DNA of 62,879 nucleotides, counting the filler, from Kipferlia bialata (taxonomy: Eukaryota), in NCBI GenBank assembly GCA_003568945.1. It is 6 parts of 6 records of this genome, joined end to end, with 100 filler letters (N's around TTAATTAATTAA, not from the genome) between each part and the next. Parts side by side here need not be neighbours in the genome. Positions count along the whole stretch, not along the records: positions 25,757 to 38,521 come from BDIP01001034.1; 5 more parts are not named here. One strand, written 5' to 3'. Both the position numbers and the translations under genes were made by a program. Under the pieces are notes generated by a model, which did no database searches, was not told where the DNA came from, and saw only the letters and a list, made by a program, of their open reading frames with translations. Below, piece after piece: positions 25,757 through 28,700 of the stretch. Positions within the stretch are counted from its first letter, which is position 1. Every line of letters begins with the position of its first letter.

Positions 25757-28700
25757 TGACTGAGACAGTGCCCGTGATGTTGAGATAGGCCGCAGAGGCC
25801 ATCACGGTCATAGAGGGGACAGCCTGGGATAAGTATATGCTAGCAATTCTATGTATATCATGTACATATAGTATATATATCATGTACATATCGTATATGG
25901 TACATGGTATCAGAGGCCATCACGGTCATGGACGGGACAGCCTGGGCTTAGGGAATACTAGCATATCTATCTATATATATACATATATATCGTGTAGGGA
26001 ATCATAGGCTATCACGGTTATGGAGAGGAAGGTCTATAGGTAAGGGTATGTGTATAGATGAACATATATTCATTCAGGTAGGTACCTCAGCTGAAGGCAC
26101 CAACTCTAGATAGACCTCCCCCTCTGGATATGCCTCATAGAGACCAGGACACACAGAGGCAAGAGTGGAGGTGGTAAGGAGAGAGAGGGACTGGGATGAG
26201 CATCATAAGTAGACACATACACATGCTATAGTACATACTATAGTATACGCATTATCGCAAGGAAGTACGGTCAATACAGAGAGAGAGAAACCATACCATT
26301 GGGTCTGTGATTTGTCTGGGATCCACCACACCCTTGAGTATATCGGTCGTGATGCCAGCATCCAGGATGGACTCATAGACAGAGCGGGAGATCTCAAGCT
26401 GGGTGTCCTAGGGTTAGATGTATATATGTGCGTAGATCAATATCATTCAACAAAGGAGGGAGCGAGAGAGGAATAAAGAGTGGATAACACTAGTCACCTC
26501 ATCATTGACCCTCCCATCCATGTCCCCGGGTACCAGTCCGTCATCCAGTCTCTTCTGCCAGGTGGGGCCTACACTCTTGGGGTAGCCGTAGCTGAGGGTA
26601 AGGAAGGCTATACCAGTACAGTAGCAGTAATACCCTGCGAAAAGACAGTGAGAGGGCTTACACACTTGGGGATATGAACCCTATACACTGTACTACTACG
26701 TACCCTGTGAAGTACACGCTGACGAAGTTGTTGTCGATGAAGATGCCTGGGAGTGAGTGACTAAGATACGGCTTGTATATAAGGTGAGTAATTGGAGGGG
26801 AGAGGCGCTTCATTACCAAGTACCTGGTTCCACAAACCGGAAGTCGGCACGTAGGTTGTCCTGACATGAGTATCATTAGGTTAGAACAAGACATACCCAC
26901 ATATACACCGATAAGACTACTGATGACTATTGCACACAGACAGAGAAGAGACGATTGGGTCAACGCCTGTTGCAACACACACATAGATATGACACATATA
27001 CTAGTACCTCCACGTTGATGTATGGCTGCTCTGACTCTGTCAGGCTGTTGACAGAGGCCACAAAGGCATCGGCCAGGAGCTAGGGTGAGACAGCTGGATG
27101 CATTATTACCATGTATATATATTGTATGTATGTATGGTGTAACACATATATGAAAGGCTGTTGACAGAGGCCACAAAGGCATCGGCCAGTAACTGAAGTC
27201 GGATACCTAAGTATAGTCTCTTAGAATATTGATGCTTGTAGTGAGAGGGGACAATCCAATAGCACTCGATACCCACCTGGTCTAGCTGCTCTGTGAACAG
27301 GTCCTGGAATAGGCCAATTAGAGTGTTGAGGACAGCATTGTACAGGGCAGAGGCACCGCCTGGGAATGAGGAGAAGTGATACATATACATATCCACATAC
27401 TCGTATCGCAAAAGAATGGTGTATATGTGTATTGAGTTATTCATACACATTCATCTATAAAGTATGGTATCACAGGAGTGTATCTACATACCACTCAAGT
27501 GTATCTGGATATCCCCAAAGTCCAGTGCAAACTCCTCCATGCTGAAGTCGAGGGTGCCACAGGCAGTGTTGAAAGCAGGACCTGATGTTAGAGATAAAGA
27601 TATTGATATATATATATATTTATATTTATATACATATATATGTGCATGTTGAAGTCGAGGGTGCCACAGTCAGTGTCAAAGGCAGGGCCTGGAGTGAGAA
27701 GAGATTCTTGTATACAAGCGCATGTTCCAACATACTAATATATATATATATATATATATATAACCATGCTGAAGTCGAGGGTGCCACACTCAGTGTCAAA
27801 GGCAGGGCCTGAGATTAGAGGTATACGTATTGACATATATATAGTGTATGCATGTCTGAATATGAATATGTATACGCATATGTGCCACACTGAGTGTCAA
27901 AGGCAGGGCCTGAGATTAGAAATGTATGTAGTATTCACACGTTTATGCTGCGCAAATATATGTATATACAGCATATGCATGTATGCCACAGTCATTGTCA
28001 TTAGCAGGGCCTGCTGTAAGAGAAATACATACTGAAAAATATATGTATGTGTAATTCTAGAATATGTATGTGCCACAGTCAGTGTCAAAGGCAGTGAGAG
28101 TGATATCAACTATACACACACCCATACACTCATGCATATGTATGCACAGGCACTTACCCATAATGACAGACCCGTGTATGTCTGTGGCACTAGCTGTCCC
28201 CGTGCCATGGTCAGAGACAAAGGGGAAGGACTGGGGTCAGGAATACATATATATATATACATATATAAATAGAGAGAGGGAGAAAGAGAGAGAGAAAAAG
28301 GGGAAGGACTGGGGTGAGTGGTATACGTATATATATGTATAGAGAGGGGGGAGAGACGGATACAGTGGAAGGACTTGGTTAGGAGAGAGAGAGGGTGTGG
28401 AGAGAGGGCAAAGAGAATAATCGGAGAATCACAAGAGAGATTGGGGGGGGAGAAAAAGAACGGATACCACTTCCTACCTGCTCCTGGAATGCCCATGAGA
28501 ATGTCATCTCAATGTCCACATGGTCCCTGTGATGTCAGTGAAGATGTGAAATAGTACAGATACACATACACGACAGAAAAGGGGAGAGAGAGAGAGAGAG
28601 ATGATATTCCGATGTCGACATGGTCCCTGTGATGTCAGCTATACTAGAAGGAGAGGGGGGAGAGAGAGAGAGAGAGTTGACAGGCAGATGTCGAGATGGT

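What the first reader, a model, noticed from the sequence alone, without database searches (positions are those of the whole stretch)
27538..28094. Six-copy polarised echo array in the BPI-like gene
Seen: exon start GPAFNTACGTLDFSM; echoes GPAFDTDCGTLDFNM (27645) and GPAFDTECGTLDFSM (27764, followed by GT); then shorter, more decayed copies at 27880, 27983 and 28069. Most keep a branch-like CT(A/C)A(C/T) and CAG. The echoes share GCC TTT GAC with one another but not with the exon. Inference: the array is a chronological record in which the functional edge is the newest or most distinct version.
Basis: partly seen in the sequence, partly recalled or inferred. Interest (0 to 1): 0.7.

Follow-up and report, generated by a model that had tools for sequence, protein, structure and literature searches.

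The report
Splice-junction "mirage" repeats in a protist
An intron of a lipid-binding-protein gene in the free-living protist Kipferlia holds five extra tandem copies of the next exon's splice signal and start, yet the spliced message seen uses only the genuine copy; these are likely harmless leftovers of small duplications, a repeat type already named "mirage" in lancelets, and they occur in about one in seven introns examined here.

Summary
The array is real: intron 6 (27582-28157, minus strand) of a Kipferlia bialata BPI/LBP-family gene (Pfam PF01273) holds five copies of the acceptor plus the first 25-45 nt of exon 7, 87-120 nt apart. RNA contigs splice exon 6 to the last, exon-contiguous acceptor; use of any echo would give a premature stop. 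It is not special to this gene: 22 of 144 introns in the window carry such echoes, on acceptor and donor sides alike. Differences shared by echoes against the exon are mostly synonymous (5 of 7) and paralogs side with the echoes, while private echo changes look neutral (6 of 26 synonymous): echoes are fossils of an older exon edge. Order is only loosely chronological: the nearest and farthest echoes are identical over 25 nt (rho 0.21, p 0.74; 14 of 22 pairs concordant across arrays). The functional copy lying at the edge is a logical necessity, not a sign of youth. This matches amphioxus "mirages" and the human F7 intron-7 VNTR. My searches found no report from a protist. Unusual points: high density, intact decoy sites as strong as real ones, and intron-derived spacers that decay far faster than exon-derived cores.

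The parts
25757..29618 (-). BPI/LBP-family gene (KIPB_004715 = P0001), 15 exons, cut off by the contig end at 25757
   Evidence: Open 383-codon model, all introns GT-AG; 11 of 14 joints listed in run X2, intron 6 added; P0001 matches the model from its second ATG; PF01273 E=4.2e-7, 30.3 bits over cut-off 28.8
28158..28230 (-). exon 6 (donor GTAAG at 28157)
   Evidence: RNA loose end beyond exon 7 reads the end of exon 6
27582..28157 (-). intron 6, 576 nt, holding the array (echo-free introns of the window: median 92 nt)
27492..27581 (-). exon 7, the functional copy; acceptor CAG with branch-like CTAAC at -10; PWM score 6.7
   Evidence: RNA contig of depth 647 covers it exactly and joins exon 6 and exon 8
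27645..27688 (-). echo c1: acceptor CAG + 44 nt of exon-7 head; PWM 9.7; use would add 107 nt and a stop
   Evidence: DNA unitig with both flanks
27764..27808 (-). echo c2: acceptor CAG + 45 nt head, followed by GT; PWM 7.7; use gives a stop or a frameshifting 44-nt cassette
27882..27909 (-). echo c3: acceptor CAG + 28 nt head; sister of c2 (1 mismatch in 25 nt, same acceptor end); PWM 7.0
27984..28010 (-). echo c4: acceptor CAG + 27 nt head, most decayed (5 of 25 from the echo consensus); PWM 5.2
28070..28094 (-). echo c5: 25-nt core identical to c1, acceptor AG lost; a like copy stands in a paralog
   Evidence: table 5c
27582..27644 (-). spacer S0 (63 nt) carrying the used acceptor; homologous to S2 and S4
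   Evidence: local score 53 and 54, p<0.01 against shuffles and other introns
27689..27763 (-). spacer S1 (75 nt), with a (TA)n run
27809..27881 (-). spacer S2 (73 nt); holds a 9-of-10 match to the exon at the point where the long heads of c1/c2 end (candidate microhomology)
   Evidence: chance level not tested
27910..27983 (-). spacer S3 (74 nt), homologous to S2
   Evidence: p<0.01
28011..28069 (-). spacer S4 (59 nt)
28095..28157 (-). 5' part of intron 6 (63 nt); its nt 10-15 resemble the exon where the short heads c3-c5 end (candidate microhomology of the founding duplication)
   Evidence: chance level not tested

Best explanation
The array is a 'mirage': five tandem copies of the end of intron 6 plus the start of exon 7, likely left by repeated ~100-nt duplications across the splice acceptor and likely without function, while the spliced RNA seen uses only the last copy. 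Shown: copies, intact decoy acceptors, splicing to the exon-contiguous copy, premature stops for every other acceptor, older exon states kept in the echoes, neutral private decay, the same structure in 22 of 144 introns. Inferred steps: (1) a microhomology-guided slip or break repair copies a 60-140-nt piece; (2) in genes of ~80-nt exons and ~90-nt introns about half of such events straddle one splice site and are tolerated because all copies but the exon-contiguous one fall into the intron, whereas those inside exons or over two boundaries are mostly purged; (3) unequal exchange and conversion among copies and paralogs add copies and scramble their order (c1 = c5; two head lengths = at least two founding events); (4) AT-rich spacers erode quickly by slippage while GC-rich cores stay legible and the exon goes on changing at silent sites; (5) the spliceosome likely picks the site by its pairing with the intact exon (exon-definition-like) rather than by site strength or nearness to the donor.
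For: Head-to-tail units of acceptor+head, steps 87-120 nt. Spacers are homologous, so intron and exon parts were copied together: S0-S2, S0-S4, S2-S3, S2-S4 p<0.01; across arrays 6 of 23 at p<0.05, Fisher p=1.4e-5. Geometry is that of tandem duplication: 13 of 144 introns hold the head of the next exon, 11 of 144 the tail of the previous one, wrong-end controls 0 of 145. Simulation on these gene models: 55% of such duplications straddle one boundary, 11% lie in an intron, 19% in an exon, 15% cover two or more. Neutrality: private echo differences 6 of 26 synonymous versus 0.27 expected. Fossil states: and an RNA contig with the paralog's allele (depth 18.4) joining exon 6 to an echo-type start. 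Splicing: exon 6 to exon 7 directly; 5 of the 7 echo-bearing introns of this gene are seen spliced at the exon-contiguous site (introns 2 and 5 not listed). All five echo acceptors lead to a stop before the body of exon 7. Same anatomy and harmlessness reported for amphioxus mirages (PMC3087553 passages).
Against: Intron-side sequence is far more diverged than cores (fixed-window identity 0.60 versus 0.56 for unrelated introns, cores 0.90), and in several arrays with near-perfect cores the spacer is not detectably homologous (e.g. gene A intron 8: 35 of 35 core, p=0.44); plain neutral decay does not predict this and faster slippage is assumed, not measured (cores are also favoured by the way echoes were found). 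Splice dinucleotides are kept in 36 of 38 echoes, no fewer than chance decay gives (p 0.016-0.055 for excess, biased by the search), so decoys are not being purged. No spacer is under 38 nt although 37% were expected, and about 20 kb of unannotated DNA holds no comparable duplication away from exon edges: the process or the filter is less random than assumed. Microhomologies were read by eye. RNA evidence is contigs of one sample, which drop rare isoforms.
Confidence: 0.8

Rival explanations
1. Strict chronological ladder: each duplication occurs at the functional edge and pushes older copies away, so distance measures age.
For: c1-c4 decay 0,1,2,5 from the consensus; 14 concordant versus 5 discordant pairs over 9 arrays; the distal echo is shared with a paralog.
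Against: c5 = c1 over 25 nt; rho 0.21, p 0.74; in the array at 32634 the nearest echo is the most diverged (5,1,3), and at 10834 the farther echo has the longer, cleaner core; trees unresolved and discordant.
Confidence: 0.25
2. Echo cores are actively kept like the exon, by gene conversion from the exon, from paralogous exons or from RNA/cDNA templates, or are inserted from such templates, which would explain near-perfect cores beside unalignable spacers.
For: Cores 97-100% identical beside spacers at null level in gene A intron 8 and the arrays at 8803 and 30983; c1 = c5; three paralogs with patchy identity; single-echo arrays have 23 of 48 synonymous differences.
Against: In the focal array the echoes keep five old states, so the present exon has not converted them; 23 of 48 fits equal neutral change in echo plus silent change in exon (expected 0.42); spacers are homologous in aggregate; echoes begin after an acceptor, not after the previous exon as a cDNA copy would.
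Confidence: 0.2
3. The echoes are functional: alternative or mutually exclusive exon starts, recursive splice points, or decoys that tune expression through unproductive splicing.
For: 36 of 38 keep AG/GT; in 12 of 24 arrays an echo site scores at least as well as the real one; c2 is followed by GT; peptide changes in c1/c2 are conservative.
Against: Every echo acceptor gives a premature stop and the c2 cassette shifts frame; no echo acceptor of this array is followed by GT; private changes are neutral; copy number differs from the paralog; the one RNA contig laid on the exon-7 head is the normal splice form.
Confidence: 0.08
4. Assembly artefact: haplotypes or paralogs of a diploid genome stitched in tandem.
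For: The genome is reported as diploid (PMC5874029 passage) and paralogous exons lie on this gene.
Against: Unitigs at single-locus depth (437-481) carry exon 7, c1 with both flanks and 27771-28231 unbroken; copies differ from each other; 24 arrays in 5 genes.
Confidence: 0.02

Closest known systems
Amphioxus 'mirages' (Adh3, globins BflGb6/BflGb9, troponin C, PGBD5); PMC3087553 and PMC3902484, passages read; the original Adh3 paper was not read
   Same: Minisatellite-like tandem copies of an intron/exon boundary; either boundary can be copied; many but not all copies keep AG/GT; splicing reported unaffected; 3-6 units; unit sizes (10-160 bp there) overlap the 58-139 nt here; edge units excluded from homogenisation.
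   Different: A metamonad protist, not an animal; 22 of 144 introns rather than single genes; mostly 1-3 copies; whole BflGb6 units are 81-100% alike whereas here only the exon-derived part is (76-100%) and the intron-derived part is often near random; allelic or somatic instability not shown here.
Human F7 intron-7 37-bp VNTR (Borensztajn et al. 2006, PMC1557585; abstract and outline seen)
   Same: A repeat whose first unit spans the exon-intron boundary and leaves intact, silent pseudo-sites; only the exon-contiguous site is used.
   Different: Donor side only, near-identical short units, long-intron mammal; the focal array is acceptor-side, where 'first site met' scanning would pick the wrong copy.
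Tandem genomic duplication model of intron gain (review PMC3443670, passages)
   Same: Small internal tandem duplications involving splice-like signals.
   Different: That model duplicates an exonic AGGT and makes a new intron; here an existing boundary is copied and the intron only lengthens; no new intron or exon was shown.
BPI/LBP/CETP family (Pfam PF01273)
   Same: Host gene passes the curated cut-off; predicted signal peptide-like start in the longer model (by eye).
   Different: Bears only on the host gene; the arrays also occur in unrelated genes.

Membership tests
Mirage (exon-intron boundary minisatellite) | Head-to-tail tandem units that span an exon-intron boundary | tested here: met
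   acceptor plus 25-45 nt of exon 7, spacers homologous
Mirage (exon-intron boundary minisatellite) | Both 5' and 3' boundaries can be duplicated | tested here: met
   13 acceptor-side and 11 donor-side arrays in 144 introns
Mirage (exon-intron boundary minisatellite) | Many but not all copies keep AG/GT | tested here: met
   4 of 5 in this array; 36 of 38 in the window
Mirage (exon-intron boundary minisatellite) | Regular splicing is not disturbed | tested here: met
   main RNA contig uses the exon-contiguous acceptor; rare isoforms cannot be seen in contigs
Mirage (exon-intron boundary minisatellite) | Copy-number instability between haplotypes or cells | tested here: inconclusive
   a paralog has a shorter array; no second allele, strain or raw reads were available
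Mirage (exon-intron boundary minisatellite) | Concerted evolution inside the cluster, edge units left out | tested here: inconclusive
   echoes share 5 states against the exon and c1=c5, c2~c3, but trees are unsupported
Mutually exclusive / tandem duplicated exons | Each copy is a whole exon with acceptor and donor that keeps the reading frame | tested here: not met
   only c2 has a following GT, 44 nt, frameshift; all echo acceptors lead to stops
Recursive splicing sites | AG immediately followed by a GT donor | tested here: not met
   c1-c4 read AG|GC; only the real exon starts with GT
Introner / intron-generating transposon | One element family inserted at unrelated sites | tested here: inconclusive
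   each unit derives from its own neighbouring exon and spacers resemble their own intron more than others; no genome-wide search possible
BPI/LBP/CETP (host gene) | PF01273 above the gathering score | tested here: met
   30.3 bits versus 28.8

The most novel reading that the evidence does not exclude
Kipferlia generates mirages genome-wide by a process aimed at splice junctions (AT-rich intron DNA breaking or slipping in a lineage without canonical NHEJ), these copies account for most of its long introns, and its reduced spliceosome ignores thousands of intact, nearer and often stronger decoy sites by cross-exon recognition, contrary to the intron-definition rule expected for short-intron protists; the minimum spacer of about 40-50 nt would mark the distance at which a decoy stops competing.
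Probability: 0.25. Interest if true: 0.68.

Novelty: new member of a known kind. Interest (0 to 1): 0.36.

Why it matters
The single array is ordinary once named. Its value is as a natural experiment: intron definition is said to predominate in most protists (PMC2397502 abstract), yet here the donor skips four intact acceptors, three scoring above the real one, in an organism with only 87 of 174 spliceosomal proteins detected (PMC6679479 passage). If the 15% seen here held for the 124,912 annotated introns (PMC5874029; an extrapolation from one window with strongly uneven genes), there would be on the order of ten thousand arrays for testing splice-site choice, intron growth (18 of 26 introns of 180 nt or more carry echoes) and the silent history of exon edges. 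Practical point: echoes mislead gene predictors (my own models first took three of them as exons).

Tried and rejected
No whole genome was held, so no genome-wide count. The look-up of sequencing runs listed no holder on record as RNA; run X2 is a guess, accepted as spliced RNA only because its joints have GT-AG ends. X1 and X2 are one sample and may be the window's source: not independent. (exon 7 alone, likeness 80) did not retrieve the paralog's exon 7, so the absence of echo-type RNA contigs there is no evidence of silence. Self-training gene prediction was contaminated by wrong-strand models and was dropped; models were used (gene A RNA-supported; gene at 29958-38011 hand-corrected so that exon lengths add up to the offsets of RNA record 10, my own arithmetic; six others predicted; contig 12888-25656 and the three-exon gene at 51526-56382 were left out of the 144 introns). 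Trees of six copies: no support above 71%. Permissive gapped identities (0.76-0.84) have no null and were not used as evidence except to show that the youngest spacers still differ at about a fifth of sites. Left out of the counts: gapped or faint older echoes (e.g. 12245, ~32205, ~11270, ~37535, ~37615), and echoes at contig ends (9122, 12750). A rule that donor-side echoes begin at an exon-internal AG was seen by eye in about half of the arrays and not tested; rejected as unproven. Literature searches that found nothing: tandem duplication + splice site + intron gain + partial exon, Kipferlia + tandem duplication (1 irrelevant), Kipferlia + UPF1 + nonsense-mediated; mirage + minisatellite + exon + intron gave 5 papers, none on protists by title; 'duplicat' has 0 occurrences in the genome paper's main text (its supplements were not read and may bear on this). 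Structure prediction was not run: it does not bear on the finding.

Full report
Setting. The window is a chain of contigs joined by N-linkers. The finding lies in the contig 25757-38521, in a minus-strand gene that I modelled as 15 exons, 383 codons, no stops, all introns GT-AG. A search with exon 8 returned three proteins named by their source as Kipferlia bialata; P0001 (KIPB_004715, contig 12,765 bases, the length of this contig) is this gene, P0002 and P0003 are paralogs at 79% and 70% identity. P0001 passes Pfam PF01273, LBP/BPI/CETP N-terminal domain. Run X2 shows 11 of the 14 introns as joints (44 further rows not shown, 7 dropped at repeats), and a contig of depth 647 joins exon 6 to exon 7 to exon 8.

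The observation. Intron 6 (27582-28157, 576 nt) holds five copies of acceptor plus exon-7 head at 107, 227, 328, 429 and 516 nt from the real site, with heads of 44, 45, 28, 27 and 25 nt. Four keep CAG, three also a branch-like motif at -10; c5 has lost the AG. DNA unitigs of run X1 reproduce exon 7, c1 with both flanks, and 27771-28231. Use of any of the five echo positions gives a stop before the body of exon 7, and c2 as a cassette (44 nt) shifts frame. A position-weight model trained on the window's 144 introns scores the real acceptor 6.7 and c1-c4 9.7, 7.7, 7.0 and 5.2, so strength does not single out the site that is used.

It is a window-wide pattern. In 8 gene models with 144 introns, 22 introns carry an echo: 13 the head of the next exon, 11 the tail of the previous exon, two both; the false-hit rate is 0.0006 per test and wrong-end controls give 0 of 145. 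The 24 arrays hold 38 listed echoes, steps 58-139 nt (one of 243 spans an N gap; median 97), exon-derived parts 10-52 nt at 90% identity overall; 35 of 38 keep AG or GT as scored, 36 after correcting one gapped copy. Echo introns have a median length of 254 nt against 92, make up 18 of the 26 introns of 180 nt or more, and echo units fill 3,820 of 19,184 intron bases. Density is uneven among genes (7/14, 4/9, 3/24, 6/31, 2/41, 0/6, 0/14, 0/5; p=0.0003) and follows low intron GC (rho -0.90, n=8). A model-free lag scan found 60 hits: 4 inside exons, 3 touching unannotated DNA (all at edges of unmodelled or truncated exons), the rest in introns, nearly all as exon-echo or echo-echo pairs.

How they arose. 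Spacers are homologous to the intron part beyond the echo: four spacer pairs in the focal array at p<0.01, 6 of 23 arrays at p<0.05, combined p=1.4e-5; the 9 high-complexity intron-side repeats among 112 tests all lie in echo introns. So intron end and exon start were copied together, head to tail. Two head lengths (27-28 and 44-45 nt) point to at least two founding events, and each ends where the exon resembles a nearby intron word (read by eye). Metamonads lack canonical NHEJ (PMC8516963 passages), which makes microhomology-guided repair or slippage a reasonable but untested source. Simulating duplications of the observed sizes on these genes, 55% straddle one boundary, 11% fall in an intron, 19% in an exon, 15% cover two or more boundaries: survival alone explains why visible copies sit at exon edges and why the working copy is always the one joined to the exon.

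Are they a chronological record? In part. Echoes keep older exon states: P0003 reads D-T-D and P0002 N-T-D against N-T-A in this exon; an RNA contig with the paralog's allele joins exon 6 to an echo-type start (5c; most simply the paralog's own exon 7). After removing repeated counts, differences shared by all covering echoes are 5 of 7 synonymous (p=0.017), shared by some 3 of 4, private 6 of 26 (neutral 0.27), single-echo arrays 23 of 48. Thus the exon moved on at silent sites and the echoes decay neutrally. A DNA contig with the paralog's variants (depth 429.4) joins 27819 to 28069 across 39 other letters: that paralog appears to have a c5-like echo and a c2/c3-type working acceptor, so c5 is likely old and the middle copies later (assignment to P0002 is inferred from two variants). 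c1-c4 differ from the echo consensus by 0, 1, 2, 5 of 25. But c5 differs by 0 and shares c1's branch motif, mismatches to the exon run 4,5,6,7,4 (rho 0.21, p 0.74), and over 9 multi-echo arrays 14 pairs agree with distance, 5 disagree, 3 tie. Trees are unsupported and differ between core and spacer. Exchange among copies and paralogs has blurred the order.

What remains unexplained. (a) Intron-side windows are barely above random (0.60 versus 0.56; 5 of 37 above the null's 95th percentile) while cores are 90%; some perfect cores sit beside unalignable spacers. Fast slippage in TA/CT-rich DNA is my preferred cause; conversion of cores is the rival; the search itself favours good cores. (b) No spacer under 38 nt among 38, against 37% expected; erosion of cores and growth of spacers inflate the observed values, but a selective minimum is possible. 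(c) Decoy sites are not purged, and in 12 of 24 arrays one scores at least as well as the real site. For acceptor arrays the last site is used and for donor arrays the first, which neither nearest-site pairing nor site strength predicts; pairing across the intact exon does. Low-level use followed by decay cannot be excluded with contigs.

Comparison with what is known. Earlier notes of this scan pointed to amphioxus 'mirages', which I checked: tandem duplications of either intron/exon boundary, many keeping AG/GT, not disturbing splicing, unstable in copy number (PMC3087553 and PMC3902484 passages); the human F7 intron-7 VNTR is the donor-side case (PMC1557585 abstract). Four of six listed features are met, two inconclusive, none failed. 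Searches showed no protist or Kipferlia report in their listings; subscription journals and supplements were not covered.

Verdict. Interest 0.36; the density in a deep-branching short-intron protist and the ignored strong decoys are the parts worth a genome-wide follow-up.

Noticed in passing
window 25757-29618 (-), introns 2, 4, 5, 8, 11, 14: Six more acceptor-side echo arrays in the same BPI-like gene (7 of 14 introns in all); the intron-8 echo is identical over 35 nt and stays in frame with exon 8 through the intron.
   Followed up: yes
window 32144-33016 (+): One 90-nt exon (32545-32634, weak XPG_I_2 hit, E=0.01) is flanked by three acceptor echoes upstream and three donor echoes downstream; a fainter fourth acceptor echo near 32205.
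   Followed up: partly
window 8700-8734 (-): A donor-side echo has gained a CAG in front and so looks like a complete 35-nt exon; my predictor included it. Candidate for exon birth, but not a multiple of 3; no RNA check.
   Followed up: partly
window 10164-12787 (-): Short contig in which 4 of 9 modelled introns, plus the intron cut by the contig end, carry echoes on either side.
   Followed up: partly
window 13766-13955 (+): Two short donor-side echoes after the first exon of an unmodelled gene in the otherwise echo-free contig 12888-25656; below the scan thresholds.
   Followed up: no
window 4826-4972: In-frame 66-nt tandem duplication inside a long exon: the same size class of duplication surviving because it keeps the frame.
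   Followed up: no
window 29958-38191 (+): 32-exon gene starting MGVR with an XPG/PIN-like E-A-D motif, weakly covered by RNA contigs; PMC8516963 reports XPG absent in Fornicata, so its family deserves a check.
   Followed up: partly
window 38715-39699 (-): Seven predicted exons that read like a flavodiiron / metallo-beta-lactamase-fold protein (recalled resemblance, not scanned).
   Followed up: no
window 16267-17142 (-) and 56280-59008 (-): Intron-poor Kelch-repeat ORF and a WD40 protein gene (Pfam).
   Followed up: partly
P0001 and P0002 annotations: The deposited P0001 starts 16 codons downstream of an in-frame ATG at 29618 that adds a signal-peptide-like stretch; P0002 seems to use a wrong donor in exon 6 and lacks 12 residues. 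BPI paralogs alternate near-identical and divergent exons, suggesting patchy gene conversion.
   Followed up: partly
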